A stretch of DNA of 64,000 nucleotides from Prevotella sp. UBA5387 (lineage in GTDB: Bacteria > Bacteroidota > Bacteroidia > Bacteroidales > Bacteroidaceae). The notes below the pieces were generated by a model, which searched no databases, was not told the origin of the DNA, and saw only the letters and a program-made list of their open reading frames with translations. Every line of letters starts with the position of its first letter. Position 1 is the first letter of the stretch. Of this stretch, positions 3,245 to 57,086 are shown piece after piece. The stretch lies in NCBI GenBank assembly GCA_002407775.1, contig DHOP01000009.1:16457-80456 (forward strand), given 5' to 3'. The position numbers and the translations under genes are program-made.

Positions 3245-3260
3245 CCAAAAATAAGATATT

Positions 3261-11512: not shown

Positions 11513-11591
11513 TGCTCAAGGCATTTGGTCATAGGCCATATTATCTTGGAGTGAATATCGCCTAATGGTTGGTATCCTTTCCGTTAATTTG

Positions 11592-11599
11592 CAAAGATA
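11592..11599 (-). promoter_or_regulatory. Candidate -7 box (TATCTTTG) for the regulator gene
   Basis: The minus strand reads TATCTTTG, 80 nt upstream of ATG 11512. Confidence 0.35.
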
Positions 11600-11623
11600 A
11601 TAAAATTGTTGATTTCCGAGAGT

Positions 11624-11730
11624 ATAATTCAATTTGTTTTACGTTGTGATTCAATTTGATTCACGTTGTGTTTCAATTTGATTCATGCGGTGATTCAATT
11701 TGTTTTACTGAGTGATTCAATTTGAATCAC
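11624..11730 (+). repeat. Array A of the 22-bp-periodic near-palindrome repeat family (5 units)
   Basis: Units start at 11624, 11646, 11668, 11690 and 11712. Sequences: ATAATTCAATTTGTTTTAC, GTGATTCAATTTGATTCAC, GTGTTTCAATTTGATTCAT, GTGATTCAATTTGTTTTAC, GTGATTCAATTTGAATCAC. Spacers are 3 nt. Confidence 0.95.
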
Positions 11731-11936
11731 GATCCGACTACTATGTAACCATGCCTACAATGGTTAATTTTGGGCAGCTTTCTTACTGCTTTTGCGTTTC
11801 TAAAGTCCGTTTTTGTCGAATAAGGTTTAGATTATTCTCATTCAAAAATATGATAAATCATTTATAATCAGCTAATTGATATTTTGATTAACTTTGATTT
11901 ATCATTGATAGACTTGTACTCTCCCATCCTTTGATC

Positions 11937-11944
11937 TATCTTTG
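11937..11944 (+). promoter_or_regulatory. Candidate -7 box (TATCTTTG) for the starch-PUL susC
   Basis: TATCTTTG lies 38 nt upstream of ATG 11982 and inside the TTG-extended ORF-track version, which supports the 11982 start. Confidence 0.45.
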
Positions 11945-11981
11945 CAACATTATACTACTAATATTAACTATAGAAAAAAGT

Positions 11982-14975: not shown

Positions 14976-14987
14976 TGACAAACAACG

Positions 14988-16592
14988 ATGATTATGAAAT
15001 CTATATATAGCAAGATAGCAGCGGTAGTACTCCTCAGCATTACTGGACTGACCGCCTGCACCAATGACCTGAACCAGGAGCCGCTGGCCGACACTACTTT
15101 GACGGCTGAGAAGGCATGGATTCAGCCTGGTTCATACGACAAATACATGTCCAAGCTTTACAGTGCACTGGCCATTTCGGGCAACGATGGCCCAGGGTCA
15201 GGCGACATTGTGGGTTCAGACCAGGGCGAAGCAACGCTGATTCGCTCTTATTTCAACCTTCAGGAGCTACCCACTGACGAAGCAGCCATTGCATGGGGCG
15301 ACGATGGTCTGAATAGCTTGACATTCAACTCATGGAGTGCCACCAACCGATTCATCATGCTGTCTTATGACCGTTGCGAACTTATCAATGCCTGGGTCAA
15401 TGAGTTTCTCATCCAGACGACTGACGAAAAGCTCAGTGCTCGCGGTGCCAGCACTGCTTTGATCGACTCTGTGAAGCTTATGCGCAACGAGGCTCGCGTC
15501 ATCCGTGCTTTCTCTTACAGCCTGCTTATGGACCTTTATGCCAATGTTCCTTTTGTGGATGAAAACACTGGCGTAGGTGCGTTCTTGCCCGAGCAGAAAG
15601 GCCGTGACTTCCTGTTCCCTTACATAGAAAGCGAACTTAAGGCTGCCATTGCCAATCTTCCAGAGAAGAGCGACCGTCATTACGGCATGGCAAACAAGTT
15701 CGTAGCCGATATGATTTTGGCCAATCTCTACATGAATGCAGAGGTTTACGGACAAGGAAACCGCTACAACGATGCCATCGCTTGCCTTAATGACATTATC
15801 GACAACGGTGGTTATACGTTGGAACAAAAGTATGGTTACAACTTCAATGCTGACAATTACAAGTCCAAGGAAATTATCTTCCCAATCATTTACGATAGCC
15901 AATATGCACAGAGCTATGGTGGAACGATGTACCTCATGGCAGGAACGTTTGGCACAGACATGGCTCCTTCCGACAACTATGGTCTCAATGGGTCTTGGTC
16001 AGGACTACGTGTGAAGGAAGATATTGTGAACCTTTTCAGCGAGGGAGATCAGCGCGCGATGTTCTTTACAGGTGAGGGCACCGATAAACCACGCACCAAA
16101 TCCATCTCTAACACATCCGATTACTATCAGGGTTATCCTTCTATCAAGTATCAAAACCTAAACCGCGACGGCTCGGCTGCAGTCAACAAGAACTTCTCTG
16201 ACGTGGACTTCCCATTCTACAGATTGGCCGATGCATATTTGCTTTACATAGAGGCTGTAAAGCGTGGAGGCAATGGAGACGCTGCGAAGGCTGTACGCTT
16301 GTGGAATGCTTTGCAACTAAGGGCATTTGGAAATAACAACCATGATATCGCAAGTTTGTCAGACATTACACTCAATGATATCCTTGACGAACGTGGTCGT
16401 GAACTCTATTGGGAGGCTCATCGCAGAACAGACCTTATCCGGTTCAATAACTTTACCGACAACAAGAACTGGTCTTGGAAGGGTGGATCACAAGCTGGCG
16501 TGCAGAAGATAGACGACAAATACAAGATCTATCCATTGCCATCGACCGACCTTTCGGCCAATCCAAACCTCAAGCAGAACCCCGGTTACTAA
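14988..16592 (+). CDS. susD: SusD-family glycan-binding lipoprotein
   Basis: 534 aa. Lipoprotein signal ...SITGLTAC. SusD-like motifs (RVIRAFSYSLLMDLYANVPF, FPFYRLADAYLLYIEA). Confidence 0.85.
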   Translation: MIMKSIYSKIAAVVLLSITGLTACTNDLNQEPLADTTLTAEKAWIQPGSYDKYMSKLYSALAISGNDGPGSGDIVGSDQGEATLIRSYFNLQELPTDEAAIAWGDDGLNSLTFNSWSATNRFIMLSYDRCELINAWVNEFLIQTTDEKLSARGASTALIDSVKLMRNEARVIRAFSYSLLMDLYANVPFVDENTGVGAFLPEQKGRDFLFPYIESELKAAIANLPEKSDRHYGMANKFVADMILANLYMNAEVYGQGNRYNDAIACLNDIIDNGGYTLEQKYGYNFNADNYKSKEIIFPIIYDSQYAQSYGGTMYLMAGTFGTDMAPSDNYGLNGSWSGLRVKEDIVNLFSEGDQRAMFFTGEGTDKPRTKSISNTSDYYQGYPSIKYQNLNRDGSAAVNKNFSDVDFPFYRLADAYLLYIEAVKRGGNGDAAKAVRLWNALQLRAFGNNNHDIASLSDITLNDILDERGRELYWEAHRRTDLIRFNNFTDNKNWSWKGGSQAGVQKIDDKYKIYPLPSTDLSANPNLKQNPGY

Positions 16593-16612
16593 TCCATAAT
16601 AATGATTTCGCA

Positions 16613-18055
16613 ATGAAAAAGATAAAATATTTAGCCCTCATGATGTTGGGATTGCTTTCCCTTGCATCATGTAGCGATGACGATTCTCCCATACTTGACT
16701 TCAGTCGAACAGAGCTTCCTAAGCTCAATTCACTGGGACAGAACGTGATGTATGTCTATAACAATCAGAACACTAAGTACGTTTTCACTTGGAGTCAGGC
16801 CCGTTTCTTCTTCAAAGATGCCTATGCATCAACCTCAATTGGTGGTTATGAGAAAGGTGGAGTTACCTATGAGTTGCAATGCGACACTGTAGGCAACAAC
16901 TTCGCCACCCCTATTAGCGCCGGCAGTGTGACTTCCTTGAACTCCCTGACCATTGATGCGGCTGAGTTGGCAAAGACTATAGAAGCTACCTATCCTCAAC
17001 CAGACAGCATCGTTCCGCTAGAGTTCAGAATCAAAGCACAATTTGGTTCGACCGATACCACGATCATCTATAGTTCAAATGTGCTGCCCGTGACGCTCAA
17101 TTACGCCGGCAAACCTGCTGCTCCAGCGCCTGATCATGCACCTTACAAAGTATATGTGGACGACCAAACTGGGTGGGATGCTACCACGCTTTATATTTGG
17201 AATGATGGTGGTAAGGTGAAGGACGGATGGCCAGGTGTAGCTCCTACAAGCACAGAGAAGATAGGAAATACAACCTATAAGGTATGGGAGCTCGACGAAG
17301 CCTATCAGAAAGCCAAAGGCATGCACTTCATTTTCAACAACAATGGAGGCGGAACACAAATCGATGATGTACTTAGTGGCTTTGAATTCACAGGCAATGT
17401 TTACCTTCGTCTCAATGCCGACAAGACGTTCCAGCAACTTCCTGACCCATTCGCAAAGACCATTAGGCTCTATGTGAAGAATACTACGGGCTGGTCAGAC
17501 ACTTATCTCTACATGTGGAGCAACGGTGGAGATGTCGCCGACCCATGGCCAGGACTAAGGCTCGATGGTGGCAACAAGGTGACGCTCAATGGCGTAGAGT
17601 ACACCGAATATTACTTACCACAGGCTTATGTGGGCAAGACGGGTGCCAACTTCATCTTCAATAACAACGCCGGCTCACAGTTTGACGGTCCTCAGAACGT
17701 GAATCTCGATCACGATCTCGGTGTTACACTGAGTAGCACAGGTGCCAACGAGGAGAATTTACCTGCACGTATCTTTGTTCTTGACGGCAGTGGTTGGGGC
17801 GACCTTAGTCTGTACGCATGGAATGAGACAGGTAATATGGTCGGATGGCCAGGCGTACACTACAGCTTCACTGAGAATATCAACGGTTTAGAATGGAAAG
17901 TCTTTGTTATGCCAAGTGACTATGCCGCCAATGCAGTGAACTATATCTTCAACAACAATGGAGGTGGAAGTCAGTTTGATGCCATGAGTGGTTACACCAT
18001 CAAGGGTGAGACTTTTGTCAGCATCACATCGAAATCGTACACAGTAATTGAATAA
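16613..18055 (+). CDS. SusE/SusF-like surface lipoprotein with three CBM26-like starch-binding repeats
   Basis: Start set at ATG 16613 (MKKIKYLALMMLGLLSLASC lipobox); the ORF-track start overlaps susD. Three repeats of (Y/F)V.D.(T/S)GW....LY.W...G....WPG, each followed by FIFNNNGGG(T/S)Q.D. The same module heads the downstream amylase. Confidence 0.7.
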   Translation: MKKIKYLALMMLGLLSLASCSDDDSPILDFSRTELPKLNSLGQNVMYVYNNQNTKYVFTWSQARFFFKDAYASTSIGGYEKGGVTYELQCDTVGNNFATPISAGSVTSLNSLTIDAAELAKTIEATYPQPDSIVPLEFRIKAQFGSTDTTIIYSSNVLPVTLNYAGKPAAPAPDHAPYKVYVDDQTGWDATTLYIWNDGGKVKDGWPGVAPTSTEKIGNTTYKVWELDEAYQKAKGMHFIFNNNGGGTQIDDVLSGFEFTGNVYLRLNADKTFQQLPDPFAKTIRLYVKNTTGWSDTYLYMWSNGGDVADPWPGLRLDGGNKVTLNGVEYTEYYLPQAYVGKTGANFIFNNNAGSQFDGPQNVNLDHDLGVTLSSTGANEENLPARIFVLDGSGWGDLSLYAWNETGNMVGWPGVHYSFTENINGLEWKVFVMPSDYAANAVNYIFNNNGGGSQFDAMSGYTIKGETFVSITSKSYTVIE

Positions 18056-18093
18056 AAAACTTGCACCAAAAACATATAGATGTATTGTGTTTT

Positions 18094-18549
18094 ATGAGAA
18101 ATCTAATGTTAGTTCTACTTATGCAAGCTTGGTCTGTCTGCGCTTCGGCGCAGGCAGATCTTATTCACCTTGCCGCAGACAAGTTCACCAATGCCCAAGC
18201 GGGCAATGTGTTGACTGTCGAACCGACGTTCTTCCGTAATGCCGTACAGCAGTTGGAAATGAATGGCAACATACTTGCCACTTCTAAAACCACAGCTGGA
18301 AGCATTGTCTACACACTTACACAAGTTGATATTGACAAGTTAAAGGCTACCGGGATGGACATGAAGCTTACTAATGGCACTATCATTTATATATTCCTCA
18401 ATGATGCCACCACAGGGATATCCAACCCCATTAGTGCCGACATATCAGCACCCCCTGGACTTATATACTCATTAGACGGCCGTCGCCTCAACCAGGCTCC
18501 AAGCCAAGGAATATACATCACGAACGGCAAGAAACATCTTGCCCACTAA
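18094..18549 (+). CDS. Small secreted protein with a T9SS C-terminal sorting-domain-like tail (function unknown)
   Basis: Start at ATG 18094 (MRNLMLVLLMQAWSVCASAQ signal). C-terminus ...LIYSLDGRRLNQAPSQGIYITNGKKHLAH resembles a type A T9SS CTD. Confidence 0.5.
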   Translation: MRNLMLVLLMQAWSVCASAQADLIHLAADKFTNAQAGNVLTVEPTFFRNAVQQLEMNGNILATSKTTAGSIVYTLTQVDIDKLKATGMDMKLTNGTIIYIFLNDATTGISNPISADISAPPGLIYSLDGRRLNQAPSQGIYITNGKKHLAH

Positions 18550-18551
18550 TC

Positions 18552-20366
18552 ATGATTATGAACAGCATGAAAAAAACGATATTATCACTTCTCGCTTTAA
18601 TCATGGCCTGCACTCTACAGGCTCAAAGCACACAGACTCTTTATAAGGCTACTCCGAGAGCTAACTCAAAGATTTACGTACAGGACAACACTGGATGGAA
18701 TGACCTTTCGCTTTATGCATGGATTGGATCTGGCGAGAATGGAAACATGAAGCCCTGGCCAGGAATCCATTATACTGGTGTTACAACCATTGCAGGGAAC
18801 CCATATAAGGTACTCGAAATGACCTCAAGCTATGAGGGACAACCACTCAACTGGATATTCAACAACAACAATGGGGGAAAGCAATTTGATGCAATGAAAA
18901 ACTTCACGCTCACTGACGACCTCTATATGCGTATCACTGCCACAGGCTACGAGTTGCTTGCCGACCCTGATCCGATACCCGCCGTTGCGCCTGTTTACGG
19001 CACTTCTACAGCTTACGACAACGTTGGAACCAAGCCACTGAGCGATAACCATCGTGTCATCTACCAGATCAACCTGTACGACTTCACCGCCGAAGGTACC
19101 TTTGCAGCTGCCCAAGCACGTCTCGATGAGCTGCAAAAGCTTGGCATAGACATAGTATGGCTGATGCCTATCTTCCCCAGAAGCAATGTCAACAAGTGGG
19201 GCACGCTTGGCTCTCCATATGCACCCAAGAGCTATTACAAGACCAATCCTGACCATGGTACGATGGAAGACTTCAAGGCTTTCGTTATTGCAGCACATCA
19301 GCGGGGCATGAAAGTGTGGCTCGATTGGGTTCCCAACCATACCGCCATGGACGCAGACTGGATAACAGAGCACCCAGAATACTACTACAAAGAGAATGGC
19401 AACTTTTACCATCCCAGTAGTGGTTCGATCTTATACGGAGATGTTTATCAGCTCGATATGCGCGACACCAACCCCGCTACACAGCAGGCTATGACAGATG
19501 CCATGTGCTTTTGGGTGGACAACACTGACGTAGACGGCTTCCGTTGCGACTTCATTTCGAGCCCTTTTATACCCACAAGCTTTTGGCTAAATGTGATTCC
19601 AGAGCTGCGCAAGCATAAGCCCAGCGTGGAAGTAATGGCTGAAGCGGATCTATCTGGTTCTGTACCAAGGCTGCTTCCAGCCGATTGGGACTTCGATTAT
19701 GCCTGGGGTTTCGAGGAGAACTTGGAGCAAGCAGCCAAGCTTTCGACCGGCGAGGGCATCACGGTTAAGAGTTATCTTGCAAGTCTTTGGAACAACACGG
19801 ACTATGGCAATGGCATAGACCGCATGGTTTACCTTGACAATCACGACCGGAATGCCGATCATGGCACAGTGAAGACGCGCTTCGGAAATAAGCTCGGAGC
19901 TTATTACACGTTGCAATTCACTGCTTACGGCATGCCGCTCATCTACAATGGAGACGAGACTGGTTACGATAAGGTCATGCCTATCGTGGAGATATTACCC
20001 ATTGACTGGACTTATGCCGATCCACAAATCAAGAACACTGTCTCTACCCTTGTGGCTCTGAAGCACACTGTTCCTGCTTTTGCCAATGGCAATGTAAGCG
20101 AGCGCGGAAGCATCAGATACCTGAGTACGGACAACGGCAATGTACTTGCTTATGAGCGTAGCAACGGTGATAGCCGTGCTTTGGTTATCCTTAACTTCGG
20201 TAGTCAGAGTGCAACGGTAGCAGTGAATGGCGTGTATGCAGGTAACTATACGCAGCTATTAAATAGCGAGACCATCTCCCAAGGCGCATCTCAACGTACT
20301 GCGACTCTTAGCGAGAGTACTCGTTTCTCCATTCCTGCCTATGGCTATCATGTTTATGTGAAGTGA
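18552..20366 (+). CDS. GH13 alpha-amylase with N-terminal CBM26-like module (SusG-like)
   Basis: Signal peptide. N-terminal KIYVQDNTGWNDLSLYAW...WPG...WIFNNNNGGKQFD. GH13 conserved regions: LDWVPNHT, DGFRCDFISS, EVMAEAD, VYLDNHDRN. Confidence 0.9.
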   Translation: MIMNSMKKTILSLLALIMACTLQAQSTQTLYKATPRANSKIYVQDNTGWNDLSLYAWIGSGENGNMKPWPGIHYTGVTTIAGNPYKVLEMTSSYEGQPLNWIFNNNNGGKQFDAMKNFTLTDDLYMRITATGYELLADPDPIPAVAPVYGTSTAYDNVGTKPLSDNHRVIYQINLYDFTAEGTFAAAQARLDELQKLGIDIVWLMPIFPRSNVNKWGTLGSPYAPKSYYKTNPDHGTMEDFKAFVIAAHQRGMKVWLDWVPNHTAMDADWITEHPEYYYKENGNFYHPSSGSILYGDVYQLDMRDTNPATQQAMTDAMCFWVDNTDVDGFRCDFISSPFIPTSFWLNVIPELRKHKPSVEVMAEADLSGSVPRLLPADWDFDYAWGFEENLEQAAKLSTGEGITVKSYLASLWNNTDYGNGIDRMVYLDNHDRNADHGTVKTRFGNKLGAYYTLQFTAYGMPLIYNGDETGYDKVMPIVEILPIDWTYADPQIKNTVSTLVALKHTVPAFANGNVSERGSIRYLSTDNGNVLAYERSNGDSRALVILNFGSQSATVAVNGVYAGNYTQLLNSETISQGASQRTATLSESTRFSIPAYGYHVYVK

Positions 20367-20463: not shown

Positions 20464-20570
20464 TTCAGTATAATTGATTCATATCGTGATTCAATTTGAT
20501 TTATGGTGTGATTCAATTTGATTCACTCTCTGATTCAATTTGATTCACTCTCTGATTCAATTTGATTCAC
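20464..20570 (+). repeat. Array B of the repeat family (1 degenerate + 4 full units)
   Basis: Degenerate unit at 20464 (TTCAGTATAATTGATTCAT). Full units start at 20486, 20508, 20530 and 20552: GTGATTCAATTTGATTTAT, GTGATTCAATTTGATTCAC, CTGATTCAATTTGATTCAC, CTGATTCAATTTGATTCAC. Exact 22-bp period. Confidence 0.95.
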
Positions 20571-20839: not shown

Positions 20840-22186
20840 TTAAAGAAAGTGATTGATTATGATTTGACCATTATGTATCCAAAGCGTAATAGTTATTGCA
20901 AAGACAACACTTCTCCAAGGATAAACCATTTTGGAGGGTAATGACTTAAACAAATAGCCAAAAGCAACAGGGATAACAAACATCCAACCAGACGCCATGA
21001 TGTATACCTCGTTTATTGCAAAGCCCAAAATCAGGTTAAGCATGATGTCGATGCCTAGCCAACAAAGCAACATTTGCAGAAGTTTTTGCCTTCGTCCAAC
21101 CCATATTCCGGCAAAAAAGATGAGCGTCACAACAGCCACTAAAGCATAAGGAAACCAGGACCGATAATGAACAATCATTGGGCGATCTTTCAATGTATCT
21201 TTTAACGCGTAGTCTTTGTGGAGCATCATTGACTCGCCAAGGAAATTTTCGATGATGGTTGGAATGCGTGGTGTAGCAAAATCCATCATATAAAGTAGTC
21301 CACTTGGGCGGAAATGCTTTGGACCGTTTTGTGCAATCCATTTAGCTTGGGCGTCGATCTGCTGTTGGGTTAAACCATTTTTCTTTTCGTTAGCTTTGGC
21401 AATGGTTTCATATTTCTTCTTCTGAGGCACCTCATAGACTTGATATTGATATTGTCTAATGGCCATAAGAGCTATCAAAGGCAAAACTACACCTAAAAGA
21501 AAGAACTTTGGTCTGAAAGCTTTTCGGCCATTACAGAACCCACCGGCAACGATGGTTTTCAAACCGTTTGACGTGGCAATTCCAGACGTAAAGAAGAGCA
21601 GAATCATTGATTGCCATGATTTCAGCATCCGTCCTTGTTGCATACACTTGCCCACAATGTAGGCTGTCATCGTAAGCAGCATCATAGAAATGGCAAAATG
21701 CTCAGGCACCATTGTCGCAAGTAGTACATGACCAAAGGAAAAGAGCAAGGCAACCAATAGCAGTGCATCAAGCCGACGCAGACCTAAAAGTTCGTGTAGT
21801 ATGCGATATACGAAGATAACAGTATAGACTGCGGAAAAGATAATGATTATACCTACAAAGATAACGGCAAAATTTACATCTATTACCTTCATCAACCAAC
21901 TGTTCAACAGATACATCGGATACAGGAAAGTGTAGTATAGCGGATGCCGAATTGACCTGAAGATGATACGACCTTCTGAAATGACATACCACGAAGTGCA
22001 GTCGTATCCAGATACGTTATATCGAGTAGAGAATATTGTCCAAAATCCCCCTGATGCGCCATCTGTGTATGCCTTCCAATGTACGCCAACAAGAAGGGCG
22101 TTGAGCGCAAAAAAAACTAATAAGGCGACGAGTGCCAATCCCCGTTCCCCACGCTTGATGCAAAATATCTTTAGCGGATTCGTCAT
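20840..22186 (-). CDS. Polytopic inner-membrane protein, paralog 2 of a GT-C-like pair (possibly DUF6080-type)
   Basis: 448 aa with many hydrophobic helices. Clearly paralogous to 22223-23662: shared VP(D/E)HF..SM, IENFLGES..LH.DY.LKD, GIW.GRR, LGF.INE.YIM, GYLFK. Family label is from memory only. Confidence 0.6.
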   Translation of the reverse strand: MTNPLKIFCIKRGERGLALVALLVFFALNALLVGVHWKAYTDGASGGFWTIFSTRYNVSGYDCTSWYVISEGRIIFRSIRHPLYYTFLYPMYLLNSWLMKVIDVNFAVIFVGIIIIFSAVYTVIFVYRILHELLGLRRLDALLLVALLFSFGHVLLATMVPEHFAISMMLLTMTAYIVGKCMQQGRMLKSWQSMILLFFTSGIATSNGLKTIVAGGFCNGRKAFRPKFFLLGVVLPLIALMAIRQYQYQVYEVPQKKKYETIAKANEKKNGLTQQQIDAQAKWIAQNGPKHFRPSGLLYMMDFATPRIPTIIENFLGESMMLHKDYALKDTLKDRPMIVHYRSWFPYALVAVVTLIFFAGIWVGRRQKLLQMLLCWLGIDIMLNLILGFAINEVYIMASGWMFVIPVAFGYLFKSLPSKMVYPWRSVVFAITITLWIHNGQIIINHFL

Positions 22187-30422: not shown

Positions 30423-31055
30423 TTAAGCTTTAAGAAACTCACTTACCACACGATAGGCTTCTGCTTCGGCTTTTACAAGGTCGTCATTGATGATCACATG
30501 ATCAAATTTTGAGGCGAAAGTCAACTCGTAAGCGGCTTTTGCCAAACGCTCTTCGATGACTTCTGGAGCATCAGTGGCACGACTCACCAATCTTCGTCTG
30601 AGCTCATCAATAGATGGGGGTTGTATGAAAAGGCTTAATGCCCTGTCTCCATAATACTGCTTAATATTGCAGCCACCCTTGACATCAACATCAAAAACTA
30701 CATTTTGGCCTGCCTCACACTGGCTCTCTACCTGCGACTTGAGCGTGCCATAGAAGCGGTCAGGATATACTTCCTCATACTCCAAGAACTCCTCTGCCGC
30801 TATCTTTGACCTAAAATCCTCAGGAGAAATAAAAAAATATTCCACTCCACTGCGCTCCATTCCACGAGGTTGGCGGCTGGTACACGAAATGGAAAAAGCC
30901 AAGTGCAACTCGGGATGCTCCTTCATCAAGTAGTTCACAATAGTACTCTTGCCACTACCACTGGGTGCGCTGAAGATGATGAGACGAGCTCGTCCCTTGT
31001 CCTTGCAGACCTTTTTGTCGGGGTTTGATGGTTGTATATCGTTGTTATTTTGCAT
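30423..31055 (-). CDS. gmk: Guanylate kinase
   Basis: P-loop SAPSGSGKST, TSRQPRGMERSGVEYFF and a typical Gmk length. Confidence 0.9.
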   Translation of the reverse strand: MQNNNDIQPSNPDKKVCKDKGRARLIIFSAPSGSGKSTIVNYLMKEHPELHLAFSISCTSRQPRGMERSGVEYFFISPEDFRSKIAAEEFLEYEEVYPDRFYGTLKSQVESQCEAGQNVVFDVDVKGGCNIKQYYGDRALSLFIQPPSIDELRRRLVSRATDAPEVIEERLAKAAYELTFASKFDHVIINDDLVKAEAEAYRVVSEFLKA

Positions 31056-31109: not shown

Positions 31110-31194
31110 GTGATTCAAATTGATTCATGCTGTGTTTCAAATTGAATCACACTGTGAATCAATTTGATTTACTCAGTGAAACAAATTGATTCAC
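31110..31194 (-). repeat. Array C of the repeat family (4 units, inverted relative to A/B/E)
   Basis: Plus-strand units start at 31110, 31132, 31154 and 31176: GTGATTCAAATTGATTCAT, GTGTTTCAAATTGAATCAC, GTGAATCAATTTGATTTAC, GTGAAACAAATTGATTCAC. Exact 22-bp period. Three of four cores read CAAATTG. Confidence 0.95.
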
Positions 31195-31268: not shown

Positions 31269-32144
31269 TCAAAGTGCATTGAGCACCTGTTCCTTGATTT
31301 GCTCCAACTCGTCCTTCATCTGCACCACGATATTCTGCATCTCAGCTTGGTTGCTCTTGGAACCAGTGGTATTTATTTCACGTCCCATCTCTTGGGCGAT
31401 GAATCCAAGTTTCTTACCCACAGGTTGGTCTTCAGCCATTGTTTCGCGGAAATACTTCAGGTGATTAGTCAAGCGCTGCTTCTCCTCGCTGATATCAAGC
31501 TTCTCGATATAGTATATGAGTTCTTGCTCCAAGCGGTTCTTATTATAATCGACTTCGGGTATCTGTTCCAATCCTTTGACAATAGTATCCTTGATTTTGG
31601 GCACCCTACTAGCCTCGAATGGTTCGATTTCATGGAGCAAACGCTCAATATTGTCCACCTTTTCATGGAACTTCTTTTCGAGGGCCGCGCCTTCTTGATG
31701 GCGGAATTTGAGGAGTTCCTCGATAGCTTGGTCTATCGCCCCATCGGCAACTTCCCACTCCTCCTCATTAAGTTGTTCAACATCCGTCTTCAAAAGTACA
31801 TCGGGTAGTCCTAACAATGTAGAATACCAGTCCTGAGGTTCGGGAATACCCGTACTTGCAGAGATTTCCTTAATTTGTCGGTAATAGTTCTCCATGAGAG
31901 TCGCGTTGATTGGCGTGGCATCCTGAAGGTTGTTCTTTTCTATCCAAATGGCAAAATCTACCTTACCGCGTTGCATTGTTTTGGAAAGCTTAAGACGTAT
32001 CTCCATTTCCTTCTCACGGTAGAGAGGGGCAATGCGAGCAGATAGATCGAGGTTCTTGCTATTGAGCGATTTAATCTCGACATTGATTTTTTTGTCCTTG
32101 TAATTGGCAACAGCTTTGCCAAAACCTGTCATGGATTGTATCAT
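31269..32144 (-). CDS. yicC: YicC-family stress-induced protein
   Basis: 291 aa. MTGFGKA N-terminus, YicC-like C-terminal region (EMGREINTTGSKS). Confidence 0.85.
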   Translation of the reverse strand: MIQSMTGFGKAVANYKDKKINVEIKSLNSKNLDLSARIAPLYREKEMEIRLKLSKTMQRGKVDFAIWIEKNNLQDATPINATLMENYYRQIKEISASTGIPEPQDWYSTLLGLPDVLLKTDVEQLNEEEWEVADGAIDQAIEELLKFRHQEGAALEKKFHEKVDNIERLLHEIEPFEASRVPKIKDTIVKGLEQIPEVDYNKNRLEQELIYYIEKLDISEEKQRLTNHLKYFRETMAEDQPVGKKLGFIAQEMGREINTTGSKSNQAEMQNIVVQMKDELEQIKEQVLNAL

Positions 32145-40557: not shown

Positions 40558-41415
40558 TTATCCATAAATGACATTACCTTCTTCGTCCATATATTCATCA
40601 AGTCCCTTTTCATAGGTAGCCATGGCACGGAGACTCATACCGATGCTGGAGAAACCACCATCATGGTAGAGATTTTGCATCGTAACCTTGCGAGTGAGAT
40701 CTGAGAACATCACCATGCAATAGTCGGCACACTCTTCTGCAGAGGCGTTGCCTAAAGGAGACATACGCTCTCCGAAGTGATAGAGCTTATCCATACCCTT
40801 CACACCTTGCCCAGCTGTAGTAAGAGTAGGTGACTGTGAAATCGTATTGATGCGGACATGACGCTCGCGTCCATAGATGTAACCAAAGCTACGTGCGATG
40901 CTTTCTAGCAACGCTTTGGCATCGGCCATATCATTGTAGCCATAGAATGTGCGTTGAGCTGCTATATAAGACAAAGCTACTACTGAACCATAATCAGCAA
41001 TTGCGTCTAGCTTCTTGGCAGACTGCAGCATCTTGTGGAATGAAATAGCAGAGATGTCAAGTGTCTTGTCGAGCATATTATAGTCGAGATCATCGTATGT
41101 GCGATGCTTACGGACATTAGGAGACATGCCAATTGCATGAAGCACAAAGTCAATCTTTCCGCCCAAAATTTCCATTGAGCGTTTGAAGACCTGCTCCAAA
41201 TCCTCCAAGCTTGTTGCGTCAGCCGGTACAACTTCACAATGCAATTTTTCAGCAAGAGCATCGATCGTTCCCATACGTACAGCTATAGCCGTGTTAGATA
41301 AGGTGATGGTTGCACCCTCCTCAACGGCACGCTCAGCCACCTTCCAGGCAATGGATTTGTCATTGAGAGCACCGAAAATAATGCCCCTCTTTCCCTTTAA
41401 TAAGTTATTACCCAT
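40558..41415 (-). CDS. fabI: Enoyl-[acyl-carrier-protein] reductase (NADH), FabI
   Basis: LKGKRGIIFGALNDKSIAW dinucleotide-binding region; SYIAAQRTFYGYNDMADAKA (Y..Y...K catalytic region). Start at ATG 41415, supported by a -7 box at 41440-41447. Confidence 0.85.
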   Translation of the reverse strand: MGNNLLKGKRGIIFGALNDKSIAWKVAERAVEEGATITLSNTAIAVRMGTIDALAEKLHCEVVPADATSLEDLEQVFKRSMEILGGKIDFVLHAIGMSPNVRKHRTYDDLDYNMLDKTLDISAISFHKMLQSAKKLDAIADYGSVVALSYIAAQRTFYGYNDMADAKALLESIARSFGYIYGRERHVRINTISQSPTLTTAGQGVKGMDKLYHFGERMSPLGNASAEECADYCMVMFSDLTRKVTMQNLYHDGGFSSIGMSLRAMATYEKGLDEYMDEEGNVIYG

Positions 41416-41439
41416 AATTTTTTTTCTGATTTGTGGCGA

Positions 41440-41447
41440 CAAAGGTA
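41440..41447 (-). promoter_or_regulatory. Candidate -7 box (TACCTTTG) for fabI
   Basis: The minus strand reads TACCTTTG, 25 nt upstream of ATG 41415. Confidence 0.45.
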
Positions 41448-41623
41448 ATCATTAAATCAGAAATTATGAACAATTTATCGAAAAAACAGACCAATTTTGA
41501 ATCCTTCAGGATCTTTAACTCTTTGTTTAATAGCCTAATTACACCTGTCAGTAATATTCGTCGTAACTCTTTTAAGCCTAAGTAGCTTTCCTATTCGCCC
41601 CATTATATCTATGAGATGGGATT

Positions 41624-41708
41624 GTGATTCAAATTGATTCACCGAGTGATTCAAATTGAATTACCGTGTGAAACAAATTGATTCACTAAGTGATTCAAAT
41701 TGATTCAC
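41624..41708 (-). repeat. Array D of the repeat family (4 units, inverted orientation)
   Basis: Plus-strand units start at 41624, 41646, 41668 and 41690: GTGATTCAAATTGATTCAC, GTGATTCAAATTGAATTAC, GTGAAACAAATTGATTCAC, GTGATTCAAATTGATTCAC. Exact 22-bp period. Confidence 0.95.
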
Positions 41709-41965
41709 ATACTCATATGGCACGCAATCATGTTAGATAAGAATGGAATTGCCAATCGAAAAACTACTTCTAACCACAATAAAACAATGAGAATGAATAG
41801 GGATAATTTCAATTATATAAAGTATTAAAAAGAAATCACAGCGTAGAATAGTCAATTTTTACGCTATGAAAATTATCTTTATTATTTAAACATTGCTCGA
41901 AAATCCAATATTTATTGGTAAATATCGATAGTGTTCCCGATTGATATAATACTTTTTCTAACGAG

Positions 41966-43486
41966 TTATCGCCCTATCACCTTTATCGTCCTATTACCTT
42001 GCCGCACAATGTAAACCTGACCAGAGTGCATGGAATCCATCCGCTGACCTTGAAGATTGTAGATCGACATTGCAGTCGCGGCATTATCTAAAGGAACTCC
42101 AATATTTGTCACAGCACCAGAAATATTGATGGTATAGGTCTTGAATATTTTAAGATCCTGAGATGCAACTGTGACGTGAGCAATTCCTCCGTTGGTCGTC
42201 TGCTCCATGGTAGTTACGATTTTTGCACTGTTTGTATTCACTGATATATCGTCAACGGTAACGGGCAAGCTAGTGTTATTTACATAAGTCATGGTGTCTG
42301 CAAGGACCAAAGGTTGGTCTTTTATCTTCATTTCGCTCACACTAATATCCTGATTGTAAATCAAGCCAAGGTCGTCAACATAGAGAGAGTCGATACTCCC
42401 CTGGCCTGGAGCAGCATTGGTGGACAGTGTTACGAGAATAGCACGGGGCTGTAGACTAGTATTATTGTAACTAAAGGGCACGCTGATGCGTTGCCATTGA
42501 TAGTCCTTTGATACGATACTCGGATACTTGGCCGAGCCAAGCACGTTATTATAAGCCTTATCCTGCGGTTCTTGATAATATGTGCCATCAGTGACTGAAG
42601 CACTTACGGTGGCATAAGGATAGGCTGTACTTGGTGTGCCTTGCTTGAATTTCACCCACACTGCGAGCGAGTCAGGTTGGCCGTTCATCAATGAATAAAA
42701 GGGATCCCCATTGCTATCTTTAGCGGTTTTACCCATATCCAGTTCCGCATGGTTGCCTGGGTCTGTAGCCGTAATTGCACCGGCTACCATTCGACCAGTG
42801 GTCAATGTGCCGTTGGCAGTGATGCCAAAAACCTTCGCAGAGGTAAGCAATACACTCTGCTTGCCCAAGCTACCCGGGCGTATCACCGAAGACACGAAGG
42901 TATGCGGAGTACCCGAGACGAAGCTGGCAAAGTCTCCTGTACAACTGGCGAAAGAGTGCCAATGATTTGGTTCGTCTATCGTCCCTTCCTCATGAAAGGC
43001 TTCAAAGCCACTGTTTGGTATCTGATAGCCTCCGTTACCAAACGTCACAGCTATGAATTGCCCTAATGTTTTCCGCATGTCAATGTTGATCACGGCATAC
43101 AGCTGGTCTCCACGAAGCTCAGCCATGAGTCTCACTGGCACGTCGCCAATCAACGGTCCTGTCCAAGTACCGGATGGTGAAGCAATGTCTCCCTCCTTGA
43201 TTTGAATAATCTGATTGGCGACAAAAGTGGTCATGCCATTGTTAGGGACACCAACAACATTGCTAATATCAATGGTACCAACGCCCATCTGTTGACCTTC
43301 CAAGGTCAAGATGAAGTTTTTTAGTATGAATGAATAAGTGCCGTCAGTCTGCTTGTTGAGACTGGTAGTGGTCGTTTGGGTACTAATGCTGCCATTGATA
43401 TTTACTTCCAAAACATCGGTGTAGTCATTGGCGGAAGCCATGAAGACACTTGCAGCTAGTGCAAAGAGTGTAAAGAGAATTCTCAT
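41966..43486 (-). CDS. Secreted protein: calycin-like N-domain + PCMD-like domain + T9SS C-terminal sorting domain
   Basis: 506 aa. Signal peptide. N-terminal YTDVLEVNINGS...YSFILKNFIL, central IPNSGFEAFHEEGTIDEPNHWHSF (PCMD-like), C-terminal ...MSIYNLQGQRMDSMHSGQVYIVRQGNRTIKVIGR. Domain names are from memory. Confidence 0.5.
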   Translation of the reverse strand: MRILFTLFALAASVFMASANDYTDVLEVNINGSISTQTTTTSLNKQTDGTYSFILKNFILTLEGQQMGVGTIDISNVVGVPNNGMTTFVANQIIQIKEGDIASPSGTWTGPLIGDVPVRLMAELRGDQLYAVINIDMRKTLGQFIAVTFGNGGYQIPNSGFEAFHEEGTIDEPNHWHSFASCTGDFASFVSGTPHTFVSSVIRPGSLGKQSVLLTSAKVFGITANGTLTTGRMVAGAITATDPGNHAELDMGKTAKDSNGDPFYSLMNGQPDSLAVWVKFKQGTPSTAYPYATVSASVTDGTYYQEPQDKAYNNVLGSAKYPSIVSKDYQWQRISVPFSYNNTSLQPRAILVTLSTNAAPGQGSIDSLYVDDLGLIYNQDISVSEMKIKDQPLVLADTMTYVNNTSLPVTVDDISVNTNSAKIVTTMEQTTNGGIAHVTVASQDLKIFKTYTINISGAVTNIGVPLDNAATAMSIYNLQGQRMDSMHSGQVYIVRQGNRTIKVIGR

Positions 43487-55277: not shown

Positions 55278-55285
55278 TAATTTTG
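55278..55285 (+). promoter_or_regulatory. Candidate -7 box (TAATTTTG) for the LOG-family gene
   Basis: TAATTTTG lies 19 nt upstream of ATG 55304 and overlaps the TTG start used in the ORF track, which supports the 55304 start. Confidence 0.4.
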
Positions 55286-55303
55286 AAGGTTAACTATCAA
55301 AAA

Positions 55304-55837
55304 ATGATGAAAATAGCAGTTTTTTGTTCAGCCAACGAGGCTATCGACCCCGACTTTTTCAAACTTACTGAAGAGTTGGGGCAATGGATTGCGGAGAATG
55401 GTTTTGAACTTGTTTATGGCGGTTGTAACCTCGGTCTCATGGAAAGCATTGGTAAAGCGGTGCACAAAGCTGGTGGACGCACCATCGGAATGATACCCAC
55501 CATCATAGAGCAGAACGGTCAAGTATCTGACTATGTGGATGTCAACATACCCTGCGCTGATCTTTCGGACCGCAAGGAAATCATGTTGGCGCAGGCAGAT
55601 GCCATCATAGCCCTACCTGGAGGAATTGGTACTCTTGATGAGATTTTTACGGTTGCAGCCGGCCGTACCATCGGTTACCACCGCAAACCAATCATTCTCT
55701 ACAACATGAAAGGGTTCTGGTCTTCGCTTATTGACCTTCTGGATGACATGCAAGAACGTGGGGTCATCCGCGGACATTGGTCCGATTATCTTACCGTAGC
55801 TAATTCGCTCGACGACATTAAGTCGATTATGGCATAG
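55304..55837 (+). CDS. LOG-family (TIGR00730) nucleotide 5'-monophosphate nucleosidase / cytokinin riboside 5'-monophosphate phosphoribohydrolase-like
   Basis: YGGCNLGLMESIG and PGGIGTLDEIF motifs. Confidence 0.8.
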   Translation: MMKIAVFCSANEAIDPDFFKLTEELGQWIAENGFELVYGGCNLGLMESIGKAVHKAGGRTIGMIPTIIEQNGQVSDYVDVNIPCADLSDRKEIMLAQADAIIALPGGIGTLDEIFTVAAGRTIGYHRKPIILYNMKGFWSSLIDLLDDMQERGVIRGHWSDYLTVANSLDDIKSIMA

Positions 55838-55880: not shown

Positions 55881-55965
55881 TTGATTCAATTTGTTTTACC
55901 ACGTGTTTCAATTTGTTTTACCGCATAAATCAATTTGAATCACGCCATGAATCAAATTGAAACAC
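55881..55965 (+). repeat. Array E of the repeat family (4 units)
   Basis: Units start at 55881, 55903, 55925 and 55947: TTGATTCAATTTGTTTTAC, GTGTTTCAATTTGTTTTAC, ATAAATCAATTTGAATCAC, ATGAATCAAATTGAAACAC. Exact 22-bp period. Confidence 0.95.
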
Positions 55966-56150: not shown

Positions 56151-57086
56151 TCATTCGTCCATCCCTTCCTTTTCTTGGATGAAATAGCTTGGGCGGTGCT
56201 TGGTCTCGTGGAAGATTCGTCCGAGATACTCGCCAATAATGCCAAGCGAGATGAGCTGAACACCTCCAAGAAAGAGCAGAACGATGATTAACGTTGGGAA
56301 GCCCTGCACCGGTTCGCCTACGATGATGGTCTTAAAGAAGACGTAGCACATATATATAAAGGCAAAAAGGGACACTAGAAGTCCCAAGATCGTAGAGATG
56401 CGAAGCGGAGCCGTGGTATAGGTGGTGATGCCTTCGATGGCAAGACCGAAGAGTTTACGATAGTTGAATGATGACGTGCCTCCGTGCCTAGATTCCTGGT
56501 TGAAGCGTATCTCTTTCTTCCTAAAGCCTATCCAGCCATAGAGCGCCTTTGTGTAGCGTTGGCTTTCGCGTAGTTGGCGCAGGGCATCTACGCATTTTCG
56601 GTCGAGCAGCCTGAAGTCGCCCACATTGGGAAGGATGTCCACATTGGCCACCCTTTGCAGGAATCGGTAGTAGGCCAAGGTCAAAATCCGTCTCATAGGA
56701 CTTTCCTTTCCTCGGCTATCGCGCTTGCCATACACGTCGTCATAGCCCTGTTCCCAAAGCGCTATCATCTGTGGAATGATATCCACAGGGTGTTGCAGGT
56801 CGGCATCCATGACAATGGCGCAATCGCCGGTGACATGGTCGAACCCTGCAAGCATGGCTTGTTCCTTGCCGAAATTGCGTGAGAGCGCAATGTAAGAGAA
56901 TCTCCTATCCTGCGCCCTAACAGCCTTTATGTTAGTCAGAGTCTGGTCGCTACTCCCATCATCGATGAGCATGATTTCCCATTCATAGGTGCTTTCCTGT
57001 TGCATAAGCCGCGTAATCGACTCCTGCAAGGATTGGATATTGGATTCCTCATTATAACAAGGAACGATGATTGAGACTTTTTTCAT
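56151..57086 (-). CDS. GT2-family polyprenyl-phosphate glycosyltransferase (GtrB/ArnC/Dpm1-like)
   Basis: 311 aa. VSIIVPCYNEE, LIDDGSSD, NFGKEQA, MDADLQHP. Two C-terminal TM helices ending GEYLGRIF. Confidence 0.85.
   Translation of the reverse strand: MKKVSIIVPCYNEESNIQSLQESITRLMQQESTYEWEIMLIDDGSSDQTLTNIKAVRAQDRRFSYIALSRNFGKEQAMLAGFDHVTGDCAIVMDADLQHPVDIIPQMIALWEQGYDDVYGKRDSRGKESPMRRILTLAYYRFLQRVANVDILPNVGDFRLLDRKCVDALRQLRESQRYTKALYGWIGFRKKEIRFNQESRHGGTSSFNYRKLFGLAIEGITTYTTAPLRISTILGLLVSLFAFIYMCYVFFKTIIVGEPVQGFPTLIIVLLFLGGVQLISLGIIGEYLGRIFHETKHRPSYFIQEKEGMDE

What the first reader, a model, noticed from the sequence alone, without database searches (positions are those of the whole stretch)
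41624..41708. Dispersed family of arrays of a 19-bp near-palindrome at an exact 22-bp period: five copies in 64 kb
**What the sequence shows.** Five intergenic loci each carry 4-5 tandem units of the same 19-mer separated by 3-nt spacers. The loci are 11624-11730, 20464-20570, 31110-31194, 41624-41708 and 55881-55965. There are 21 full units plus 1 degenerate unit.

- The consensus, read in one orientation, is GTGAWTCAATTTGAWTCAC. The core TCAATTTG is almost invariant.
- The unit-to-unit period is exactly 22 bp in every array, with no indels.
- Each unit is both an imperfect inverted repeat (GTGATTCA / TGAATCAC) and, in its commonest form, a direct repeat of TGATTCA.
- TGATTCA-like half-sites therefore recur at alternating 10- and 12-bp steps. 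That averages 11 bp, roughly one helical turn, so they would line one face of the DNA.
- None of the arrays overlaps a credible CDS.

**Interpretation.** Five copies in 64 kb suggests a high genomic copy number. The arrays resemble REP/BIME-type or iteron-like elements in principle. Their architecture (short AT-rich palindromes, strict 22-bp phasing, 85-107 bp total) does not match any repeat family I can name, and no RAYT/IS200-like or other transposase gene is in the window. Positions 5 and 15 of the unit vary between A and T without consistent compensation. That argues against a strictly conserved RNA hairpin and leaves a phased protein-binding array as a serious alternative.
Basis: partly seen in the sequence, partly recalled or inferred. 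Interest (0 to 1): 0.85.

Follow-up and report, generated by a model that had tools for sequence, protein, structure and literature searches.

The report
Phased palindrome arrays in a Prevotellaceae
An uncultured Prevotella-like bacterium carries many intergenic ~107-bp elements, each built of four strictly 22-bp-spaced 19-bp palindromes that selection preserves as double-stranded DNA, most likely a docking array for an unidentified DNA-binding protein; no catalogued repeat family matches it.

Summary
Five arrays lie at the stated coordinates: 38 motif matches against 0.14 expected, with an exact 22-bp period.

Metagenome contigs of the same species added 85 non-redundant arrays.
- All are intergenic, at about one per 10-15 kb.
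- 65 of 85 have exactly four units.
- Neighbouring units are 22 bp apart in 379 of 380 cases.
- The unit is GTRAWTCAAWTTGAWTYAC plus a random 3-nt spacer, with short inverted caps on both sides.

Selection acts on duplex DNA, not on a hairpin.
- Palindrome positions vary anti-compensatorily.
- There is no G-U over A-C bias on the transcribed strand.
- TpA steps are excluded from the W triplets.
- Between strains, core bases diverge 0.12%, flanks 0.93% and free positions 2.1%.

No feature of a known system was found: no target-site duplications, no recently copied arrays, no presence/absence polymorphism, no linked gene, and no Rfam, plasmid, phage or literature match. The family is absent from 185,579 representative genomes and from relatives' orthologous spacers.

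Best reading (confidence about 0.5): a lineage-specific dispersed repeat that works as a phased docking array for a dimeric protein still to be identified.

Unexpectedly, other Prevotellaceae carry 22-bp-period palindromic arrays with unrelated unit sequences.

The parts
11624..11730 (.). Array 1: five units at 22-bp period. It lies in the divergent spacer between a DUF6377 regulator-like gene (9878-11512, minus strand) and a SusC-like gene (11931-14975, plus strand).
   Evidence: The orthologous array in a 96.8%-identical strain (L020) has four units, with one 22-bp unit missing.
20464..20570 (.). Array 2: one degenerate unit plus four good units. It lies in the convergent spacer between an alpha-amylase gene (18552-20366, plus strand) and a DUF6080 gene (20840-22186, minus strand).
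   Evidence: In strains L007 and L020 one unit has a different sequence, which shows unit turnover at constant unit number.
31110..31194 (.). Array 3: four units between yicC (31269-32144, minus strand) and gmk (30423-31055, minus strand), downstream of yicC.
   Evidence: It is conserved in seven other assemblies of the species. Relatives have only a 69-bp or 11-bp yicC-gmk spacer and no array.
41624..41708 (.). Array 4 (the finding): four units, GTGATTCAAATTGATTCAC-type. It lies between a calycin-like gene (41966-43486, minus strand) and a FabI-like gene (40558-41442, minus strand). Caps are TGGGATT on the left and ATACTCA on the right.
   Evidence: It is present in L122, which is 99% identical. 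There is no terminator-like site and no excess of sigma-70-like sites in 41400-42000.
55881..55965 (.). Array 5: four more degenerate units in the convergent spacer between a LOG-family gene (55283-55837, plus strand) and a GT2 glycosyltransferase gene (56151-57086, minus strand).
   Evidence: The orthologous array in L009 (96.8% identity) differs at three positions.

Best explanation
Each locus is one copy of a lineage-specific dispersed intergenic element of about 107 bp. It consists of a cap, four units of [19-bp dyad GTRAWTCAAWTTGAWTYAC plus a 3-nt spacer], and a second cap.

It most likely functions as double-stranded DNA. Eight TGAWTCA dyad sub-sites, or equivalently alternating CAAWTTG and YAC-NNN-GTR dyad blocks every 11 bp, line one face of about eight helical turns. 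They would be bound cooperatively by a two-fold-symmetric protein (ribbon-helix-helix or helix-turn-helix type), roughly four dimer-of-dimer equivalents per array. This resembles how iterons or plasmid parC centromeres are bound.

At about one array per 10-15 kb, the arrays would act as genome-wide docking sites, either for nucleoid organisation or for a domesticated mobile-element protein.

**Shown:** the sequence anatomy, the strict phasing, the preference for four units, duplex-level purifying selection, and lineage restriction.

**Inferred:** that a protein binds, what type it is and what the binding achieves. Also inferred is that the copies were originally spread by some mobility mechanism that is no longer visibly active.
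For: - **Spacing is invariant although spacers are random.** 379 of 380 neighbouring units lie exactly 22 bp apart. Spacer information content is only 0.05-0.16 bits.
- **Core bases are nearly fixed.** T2, C7, A8, A9, T11, T12, G13 and A18 are at least 97% conserved across 358 units from unlinked loci.
- **Core bases are conserved between strains.** Core divergence is 1/824 (0.12%), against flanks 0.93% and free positions 2.1%.
- **Variation is anti-compensatory.** Positions 5/15 are the same base in 240 units and complementary in 118. Positions 3/17 show A-T only 14 times. Pairs 4/16 and 6/14 show almost no double changes. The four-hairpin model is beaten by 500 of 500 shuffles. A whole-array hairpin shows no covariation either. 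On the transcribed strand there is no preference for G-U over A-C (41 against 38, and 21 against 18).
- **The variable positions sit on local dyad centres.** Positions 5, 10 and 15 are where a symmetric dimer cannot tell A from T. The W4-6 triplet is only ATT, AAT, AAA or TTT. TpA steps are excluded: 0 and 1 observed against about 22 and 15 expected. This fits a minor-groove or DNA-shape constraint.
- **Four units is the stable state.** 65 of 85 arrays have four units. Unit number nevertheless changes between strains in 6 of 59 orthologous pairs. Longer arrays are recent duplications: 44% of their adjacent units are at least 95% identical, against 2% in four-unit arrays.
- **There is no decay series.** PWM scores are bimodal and isolated units are essentially absent.
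Against: - No binding protein was identified, and no gene family is enriched next to arrays.
- The family exists in one species-level lineage only. That is more typical of selfish repeats than of a host chromosome-organising system.
- How identical units reached many loci is unexplained.
- Ascertainment (a pattern search, then at most 4 mismatches per unit) inflates apparent conservation somewhat.
- The strain comparison rests on few substitutions: 1 at core, 9 at semi-constrained and 13 at free positions.
- Arrays sit preferentially nearer the upstream gene's stop codon (32 against 15). An RNA-level or insertion-tolerance explanation also predicts this.
Confidence: 0.5

Rival explanations
1. 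The arrays are a selfish non-autonomous mobile element (MITE- or REP-like). Its units are the binding sites of a transposase or recombinase encoded elsewhere in the genome. Conservation would then reflect what that enzyme recognises, not host function.
For: - The family is lineage-specific, high-copy and strictly intergenic.
- It is biased towards gene 3' ends: 32 arrays lie nearer the upstream stop and 15 nearer the next start. Convergent spacers hold 21% of arrays against 13% of background spacers.
- The element has defined inverted caps and overall dyad symmetry.
- Arrayed 19-22-bp transposase-binding sites are known at Tn7, Mu and Tn402 ends (my own knowledge, not tested here).
- Some dispersal mechanism must have existed.
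Against: - There are no target-site duplications at any offset from 0 to 12, for k of 3 to 6.
- No pair of arrays at different loci is more alike than shuffled-unit controls. The maximum is 77 of 85 identical positions, against 74-77 in the null.
- There is no presence/absence polymorphism among 59 orthologous pairs.
- No transposase was found in the window proteins scanned or recurrently next to arrays.
- In-situ purifying selection on core bases between strains, and stabilisation at four units, are not expected of dead copies.
Confidence: 0.25
2. The arrays act at the RNA or single-stranded-DNA level. Each would form four hairpins in 3' untranslated regions that stabilise transcripts or terminate transcription, as proposed for REP elements.
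For: - Single strands are predicted to fold strongly, with z-scores from -4.1 to -7.1.
- Arrays lie mostly downstream of genes.
- REP elements and BrickBuilt have been discussed in this way (PMC3733652, PMC4596501).
Against: - Predicted folds differ from array to array.
- Pair variation is anti-compensatory.
- Two thirds of units carry a W-W mismatch in mid-stem.
- There is no strand bias for G-U over A-C, and no orientation bias relative to flanking genes.
- 7 of 70 arrays lie in divergent promoter spacers.
- No terminator-like T-runs were found at array 4, and Rfam has no match.
Confidence: 0.08
3. The arrays are operator arrays of a transcription factor that regulates the neighbouring genes, in other words a regulon.
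For: The units are dyad-symmetric, operator-like sites. Some arrays lie upstream of genes, for example array 1 between a regulator-like gene and a SusC-like gene.
Against: - 15 of 70 arrays lie between convergent genes, and most lie nearer a stop codon than a start.
- The neighbouring genes have no common function or paralogy.
- About one array per 10-15 kb is far more than a regulon would need.
- Single operators do not occur.
Confidence: 0.07
4. The arrays are neutral minisatellites produced by slippage, with no recognition or function.
For: - Unit number varies between strains, and long arrays are recent duplications.
- 22-bp tandem repeats of many unrelated sequences occur across Prevotellaceae.
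Against: - Slippage cannot place the same unit at many unlinked loci.
- Core bases and spacing are conserved while spacers are randomised.
- The unit-number distribution peaks sharply at four.
Confidence: 0.05

Closest known systems
BrickBuilt minisatellite-MITE of Porphyromonas gingivalis (PMC4596501)
   Same: It belongs to the same order (Bacteroidales). It is a dispersed, strictly intergenic, species-restricted family whose core is a tandem array of dyad-symmetric units of about 22-23 nt. Copy number varies between strains, and Rfam has no match.
   Different: - BrickBuilt has 23-nt units without spacers, in 1 to 22.8 copies. Here the period is a strict 22 bp and the mode is four units.
- BrickBuilt has 200-300-nt leader and tail segments ending in IS5-type terminal inverted repeats. 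Here there are only caps of about 11 nt.
- BrickBuilt has 19 copies per genome. Here the density is about one per 10-15 kb.
- The sequences are unrelated.
REP/BIME elements and their RAYT transposases (PMC3733652, PMC2817692)
   Same: These are high-copy, short, palindromic, extragenic repeats. They lie mostly downstream of genes, are lineage-specific, and are often clustered.
   Different: - REPs carry an unpaired GTAG or CGTC tag.
- REP stems are G+C-rich, with complementary sub-family variation.
- REPs occur mainly as head-to-head or tail-to-tail dimers at variable distances, and head-to-tail tandems are rare.
- Here the units are A+T-rich, symmetric end to end, always head-to-tail at exactly 22 bp, and without compensatory variation.
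- No RAYT gene was seen.
Plasmid iterons and type Ib/II partition centromeres, for example four 22-bp iterons of pPS10 or four 20-bp repeats of pSK41 parC (recalled from my own knowledge)
   Same: The architecture is alike: four to seven tandem 17-22-bp sites phased at about two helical turns. These are bound cooperatively on one DNA face by dimeric winged-helix or ribbon-helix-helix proteins. This is the best model for how the arrays may work.
   Different: - Those arrays occur once per replicon, next to rep or par genes and A+T-rich or DnaA-box regions.
- Here the arrays are many chromosomal copies with no linked gene.
- BLAST found no similarity to 72,556 plasmids.
BOX elements of Streptococcus pneumoniae (PMC3049150)
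   Same: They are modular dispersed intergenic repeats in which a middle module (boxB) is tandemly repeated a variable number of times between two end modules.
   Different: BOX modules are 45-59 bp and are thought to act as RNA structures. There is no strict helical phasing, and the units are not palindromic.

Membership tests
REP/BIME (RAYT-associated) | Imperfect palindrome whose stem pairing is maintained, with complementary sub-family substitutions | tested here: not met
   Paired cells are 81.4% against 83.6% in shuffles (500 of 500 shuffles at least as high). Cells changed on both sides number 56 against 79.5 expected.
REP/BIME (RAYT-associated) | Unpaired GTAG or CGTC tag at one end of the palindrome | tested here: not met
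   Units start with GTR, but this is mirrored by YAC at the other end, so there is no asymmetric tag.
REP/BIME (RAYT-associated) | A RAYT (IS200-like Y1 transposase) gene flanked by the repeats | tested here: inconclusive
   None was found among 30 window proteins, and no recurrent gene family lies next to 85 arrays. The whole genome was not available.
MITE | Target-site duplications flanking the element | tested here: not met
   There is no excess of direct repeats for k of 3 to 6 at any offset from 0 to 12.
MITE | Terminal inverted repeats matching an autonomous IS in the same genome | tested here: inconclusive
   The ends are inverted (caps), but this is trivial for a palindromic array. No IS was found in the window or next to arrays.
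MITE | Evidence of mobility: near-identical copies at different loci, or presence/absence between strains | tested here: not met
   Inter-locus similarity equals the shuffled-unit null. All 59 orthologous pairs carry the array.
BrickBuilt | 23-nt spacer-less repeat flanked by leader and tail segments with IS5-type terminal inverted repeats (GAGACCTTTGCA) | tested here: not met
   The period is 22 bp in 379 of 380 cases. Flanks are conserved for only about 11 nt.
Plasmid iterons / partition centromere | Location at a replicon origin or par operon, next to rep or par genes | tested here: not met
   Arrays lie between housekeeping chromosomal genes. There was no plasmid or phage similarity.
Plasmid iterons / partition centromere | Tandem sites phased at about two helical turns and bound cooperatively by a dimeric protein | tested here: inconclusive
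   The phasing is met. Binding cannot be tested with these tools.
CRISPR array | Repeats of 23-55 bp separated by unique spacers of similar length | tested here: not met
   Spacers are 3 nt.
Any Rfam RNA family | Score at or above the family's gathering threshold | tested here: not met
   0 hits in the window. Only an L13 leader was found in relatives' loci.
Chromosomal parS | 16-bp palindrome TGTTNCACGTGNAACA | tested here: not met
   The junction between units resembles parS split by 3 bp (TGTTTCAC NNN GTGAAACA in a minority of units). No canonical parS occurs in the window or loci.

The most novel reading that the evidence does not exclude
Prevotellaceae may possess an unrecognised machinery with a 22-bp ruler. 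It could be a DNA-binding or recombination system that creates or stabilises tandem arrays of dyad-symmetric 22-bp units.

In most species the arrays have locus-specific sequences. In this lineage one unit type was amplified to a few hundred chromosomal loci. It is maintained by selection at four units per locus as a genome-wide docking array for an abundant, nucleoid-associated-like protein, which would be a new kind of bacterial chromosome-organising element.
Probability: 0.3. Interest if true: 0.85.

Novelty: new variant of a known kind. Interest (0 to 1): 0.68.

Why it matters
Small dispersed repeats such as REP, BOX, Correia and BrickBuilt elements are usually read as RNA hairpins or decaying mobile DNA. 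Here the population of copies itself shows selection on duplex features: exact helical phasing, fixed core bases, shape-restricted A/T triplets and a fixed number of sites.

That makes a concrete, testable prediction of an abundant sequence-specific binder in a gut or fermenter Prevotellaceae. It would also give a natural system for studying cooperative protein-DNA filaments on a chromosome.

The side observation could matter beyond this species. Unrelated 22-bp-period palindromic arrays recur across Prevotella, Hallella and Segatella. This hints at a family-wide mechanism that has not been described, and it affects the assembly and annotation of these abundant gut bacteria.

Tried and rejected
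- **Restriction-site avoidance of TGAWTCA/GAWTC outside arrays.** 3 observed against 5.6 expected under a Markov model; not significant.
- **Arrays inserted into locus-specific hairpins or terminators.** Left-right flank duplex energy is -8.66 kcal/mol, against -8.79 for permuted pairs.
- **Whole-array long hairpin.** 1200 complementary cells against 1238 expected.
- **Target-site duplications.** None.
- **Polarity relative to flanking genes.** None.
- **A gene family recurrently next to arrays.** Only SusC-like paralogues, as expected for this group.
- **Canonical parS nearby.** None.
- **Similarity to plasmids, phages or viral contigs.** None. One 33-bp chance hit in a Microcystis phage.
- **Literature search for the unit sequence and for Prevotella repeat families.** Nothing found.
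- **The three genome-collection hits (Christensenella, Bacillus, Devosia).** They are isolated single palindromes, not arrays.
- **Look-up of the FabI-like protein.** Not on record.
- **Density estimate from arrays per fetched locus.** Abandoned, because loci from one contig are split between hits. Contigs with several hits and the window give about one array per 10-15 kb.

Full report
**1. Observation**

The sequence at 41624-41708 is four tandem units, GTGATTCAAATTGATTCAC-like, each followed by three variable bases. The same design occurs at 11624, 20464, 31110 and 55881.

- The 19-mer GTGAWTCAAWTTGAWTCAC with up to 3 mismatches matches 38 times on both strands. Dinucleotide shuffles give 0.14.
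- Tandem Repeats Finder reports period 22 with 0% indels in four of the five arrays and 2% for array 2, whose first unit is degenerate.
- A pattern spanning two adjacent units matches 18 times against 0 expected.
- All six reading frames of every array contain stops.
- No ORF of 100 aa or more overlaps an array.
- Rfam finds nothing in the window, and there are no tRNAs.

The only correction is that the centre of the unit is W, giving CAAWTTG.

**2. Source organism and distribution**

The flanking genes are ordinary chromosomal genes of a Bacteroidota. They include SusC-like, DUF6377, alpha-amylase, DUF6080, YicC, Gmk, FabI-like, LOG, GT2, PorZ, MiaB, DapB and signal peptidase genes. No transposase was found among the 30 proteins scanned.

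- The nearest YicC homologues, apart from an identical protein seen in 17 contigs, are 81-82% identical. They are named Prevotella sp. or Hallella.
- The nearest MiaB is 85% identical, from Hallella bergensis and a Prevotella MAG.
- The source is therefore an uncultured, rather isolated Prevotellaceae lineage with 45% G+C.

An exact two-unit pattern was scanned over one genome from each of 185,579 species. It returned only three isolated palindromes, in Christensenella, Bacillus and Devosia. Viral contigs returned nothing.

Three of those stretches overlap the window at 96.8-98.3% identity. The rest are other parts of what appears to be the same species. Contigs carrying several hits, and the window itself, give about one array per 10-15 kb.

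**3. Anatomy from 85 non-redundant arrays (358 units)**

*Unit number.* Four units in 65 arrays, five in 8, three in 6, six in 3, seven in 2 and eight in 1.

*Consensus.* G(.83) T(1.0) R A W T C A A W T T G A W T Y A(.99) C(.83), followed by three positions with 0.05-0.16 bits of information.

*Spacing.* Neighbouring units scoring at least 14 bits are 22 bp apart in 379 of 380 cases. The one exception is 44 bp.

*No decay series.* PWM scores are bimodal, mostly 22-31 bits, and isolated units are essentially absent.

*Sub-structure.* The unit contains two 7-bp dyads, TGAWTCA, 10 bp apart. The next pair follows 12 bp later. Equivalently, dyad blocks CAAWTTG and YAC-NNN-GTR alternate every 11 bp.

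*Variable positions.* The three variable W positions (5, 10, 15) sit exactly on local dyad centres.

*W4-6 triplet.* It is only ATT, AAT, AAA or TTT. TpA steps occur 0 and 1 times against about 22 and 15 expected.

*Caps.* Outside the array there is a weaker inverted consensus..T-S-R-G-N-T-T [array] A-A-N-C-Y-S-A... Read outward it is AAYSCSAAWRG. It places a different small dyad (CC-AAA-GG-like) in phase with the TGAWTCA series. The whole element is therefore about 107 bp and dyad-symmetric overall. The central W is A in 74% of first units and T in 63% of last units.

**4. Duplex DNA or hairpin?**

Single strands are predicted to fold well (z from -4.1 to -7.1). The predicted folds differ from array to array. 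Every covariation test argues against a selected structure.

- Positions 5 and 15 prefer the same base: AA 122 and TT 118, against AT 64 and TA 54 (p=9e-11).
- Positions 3 and 17 give G-C 185, G-T 82, A-C 69 and A-T 14.
- Pairs 4/16 and 6/14 show 0 and 3 double changes.
- The count of structure pairs on 65 four-unit arrays gives 81.4% paired cells against 83.6% in shuffles. Cells changed on both sides number 56 against 79.5. All 500 shuffles do at least as well.
- A whole-array hairpin has 1200 complementary cells against 1238 expected.
- In arrays lying between co-directional genes, G-U is no commoner than A-C on the transcribed strand: 41 against 38, and 21 against 18.
- Array polarity does not follow gene direction.
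- Adjacent 7-mers prefer the same central base. This is strongest across the spacer (odds ratio 8.6), where a perfect inverted repeat would make the most stable hairpin. That looks like avoidance of perfect palindromes.

**5. Evidence for ongoing selection**

25 distinct orthologous array pairs from different strains were compared, covering 103 units.

| Position class | Differences | Divergence |
|---|---|---|
| Core positions | 1/824 | 0.12% |
| Semi-constrained positions | 9/824 | 1.1% |
| Free positions | 13/618 | 2.1% |
| 60-nt flanks | – | 0.93% |

Unit number differs in 6 of 59 orthologous pairs: 4/5 twice, 6/7, 5/7, 2/4 and 3/5. Unit gain and loss is therefore frequent, yet 76% of arrays have exactly four units.

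Arrays with five or more units are recent duplications. 44% of their adjacent units are at least 95% identical, against 2% in four-unit arrays. Four diverged units is thus the long-term stable state.

Spacers have randomised in sequence but never changed in length.

**6. Evidence bearing on mobility**

- All 85 arrays are intergenic.
- They occur in co-directional (48), convergent (15) and divergent (7) spacers, roughly in proportion to the background. There is a mild convergent excess.
- In co-directional spacers they lie nearer the upstream stop in 32 cases and nearer the next start in 15.
- There are no target-site duplications.
- There is no locus-specific flank complementarity.
- No pair of arrays at different loci is more similar than arrays built from shuffled units.
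- There is no presence/absence polymorphism.
- No gene family recurs next to arrays.
- In relatives, the orthologous yicC-gmk spacer is 69 or 11 bp and lacks the array. No unit with up to 4 mismatches occurs in about 250 kb of relatives' DNA.

The family was therefore spread within this lineage by an unknown route, and is not visibly moving now.

**7. Interpretation**

The following features all point to recognition of duplex DNA by a two-fold-symmetric protein that assembles cooperatively along one face of about eight helical turns:

- invariant spacing with random spacers;
- fixed bases arranged as nested dyads;
- free bases only at dyad centres;
- an A-tract-like restriction that fits minor-groove shape readout;
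- a preferred number of units;
- in-phase caps.

This is how iterons and ribbon-helix-helix partition centromeres are organised. That comparison rests on my own knowledge and is architectural only.

I commit to this reading at about 0.5. The protein, and the purpose of binding, are not known. Possible purposes are nucleoid organisation, a domesticated mobile-element function, or a roadblock or insulator.

The main rival, at 0.25, is a selfish non-autonomous element whose conservation reflects its mobilising enzyme. The two readings overlap, because both require a specific binder. RNA hairpins, a regulon and neutral minisatellites are each unlikely, for the reasons given above.

**8. Comparison with known families**

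- **REP/BIME.** Not a member: no unpaired tag, no compensatory stems, strictly head-to-tail arrangement, and no RAYT seen (PMC3733652).
- **MITE.** Defining features are not met: no target-site duplications, no autonomous partner, no mobility signal.
- **BrickBuilt of P. gingivalis.** This is the closest described relative in kind: a Bacteroidales, intergenic, dyad-symmetric tandem core of about 23 nt. It differs in having long leader and tail segments with IS5-type ends, highly variable copy number and a different period.
- **CRISPR, iterons, parS and Rfam families.** All excluded.
- **Literature.** No paper in the searchable library contains the unit sequence.

I rate it a new variant of a known kind, namely small dispersed intergenic repeats, with an unusual and well-defined architecture.

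**9. Unexpected wider pattern**

Most 20-kb loci fetched from other Prevotellaceae contain tandem arrays with a period of exactly 22 bp. They have 2 to 6 copies, usually with a palindromic core, and unrelated sequences.

| Source | Locus and coordinates | Unit | Copies |
|---|---|---|---|
| Hallella multisaccharivorax | L133 12084-12191 | TCCTGCACGTGCCAGACGATGC | 4.9 |
| Hallella multisaccharivorax | L133 18072-18157 | GTAGAGGCARTGCCATTAC+ACT (19+3 layout, GTR..YAC ends) | 3.9 |
| Prevotella GCA_019973395.1 | L134 11588-11679 | TGCGAAACGG-W-CCGTTTCGCA+T | 4.2 |
| Gut Prevotella MAG | L135 3359-3486 | GGAGGTTCGGCGAAAGGTCGAT | 5.8 |
| GCA_902469445.1 | L132 3756-3838 | ATCCGTGGCAAATGCCAGCGAT | 3.8 |

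Weaker examples occur in L130, L138 and L139.

Of about 19 independent TRF hits with period 12 or more in these loci, 9 have period 22. The window species also has non-family 22-bp arrays (L084, L062, L051, L032).

I could not explain what sets this 22-bp ruler. It suggests that the window family is one amplified instance of a family-wide phenomenon.

Noticed in passing
L133:12084-12191, L133:18072-18157, L134:11588-11679, L135:3359-3486, L132:3756-3838, L130:9085-9153, L130:19160-19201, L138:3868-3930, L139:5089-5131: Other Prevotellaceae (Hallella multisaccharivorax, several Prevotella and Segatella genomes) carry intergenic tandem arrays with a period of exactly 22 bp. They have 2-6 copies, mostly with palindromic cores, and unit sequences unrelated to the window family and to each other. 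Period 22 is by far the commonest long period: 9 of about 19 independent TRF hits with period 12 or more.
   Followed up: partly
L084:2250-2380, L062:4485-4546, L051:14114-14173, L032:9606-9653: The window species itself has further 22-bp-period tandem repeats with different units. One example is GTATCAAATCGCAATGCGATTA, which contains a 17-bp palindrome. The 22-bp preference is therefore not tied to one sequence.
   Followed up: partly
L130:19160-19201 and L138:3868-3930 (both from GCA_016901395.1): Two 22-bp arrays from different contigs of one relative share the core TATCGAATCG. That genome may have its own small dispersed family.
   Followed up: no
L014:3319 vs L108:3368; L024:9860 vs L117:1808: Between strains, the central W of a perfectly palindromic unit flips A<->T (CAAATTG <-> CAATTTG). 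This is equivalent to inverting the unit. It could be an ordinary transversion or a palindrome-mediated template switch.
   Followed up: no
L053:3980-4020 vs L093:5059-5143: At one locus, strains 99.3% identical carry two units and four units respectively. This is a clean 44-bp deletion between units.
   Followed up: yes
window 9253-9684 (+): A small 143-aa protein with a HIRAN domain (E=5e-10), a module that binds DNA 3' ends and is uncommon as a stand-alone bacterial protein. It lies about 2 kb from array 1, and no link to the arrays was shown.
   Followed up: no
window 149-4877 and 9878-20366: Two SusC/SusD-like pairs. The second forms a starch-type polysaccharide utilisation locus with a DUF6377 regulator-like gene and an alpha-amylase carrying CBM26. 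Arrays 1 and 2 bracket this locus.
   Followed up: no
L131:12016-12198 and L132:12014-12213: A dense patch of different short tandem repeats (7/14-bp GTGTTAGGTGATAG, 18-bp CTTTTACCTTCTCTTGCA, 8-bp TTTTTACT) lies downstream of the nadD-like gene in a Prevotella relative.
   Followed up: no
L137:9322-9489: Hallella bergensis, the closest named relative by MiaB, has a 14-bp tandem repeat (CAAAATTCATAATT x5.5) upstream of miaB, instead of any 22-bp array in that 21-kb locus.
   Followed up: no
L103:3426-3931: A long 21/42/66-bp periodic repeat in the window species. From its multiple-of-three period and GGCTATCAGCC-type unit it looks like a coding Gly/Tyr/Gln/Pro-rich protein repeat.
   Followed up: no
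L133:17852-17928 (-): An L13-Bacteroidia ribosomal-protein leader (Rfam RF03127, 60.8 bits) lies about 150 bp from the 22-bp array at 18072-18157. That array therefore sits in the rplM promoter region.
   Followed up: no
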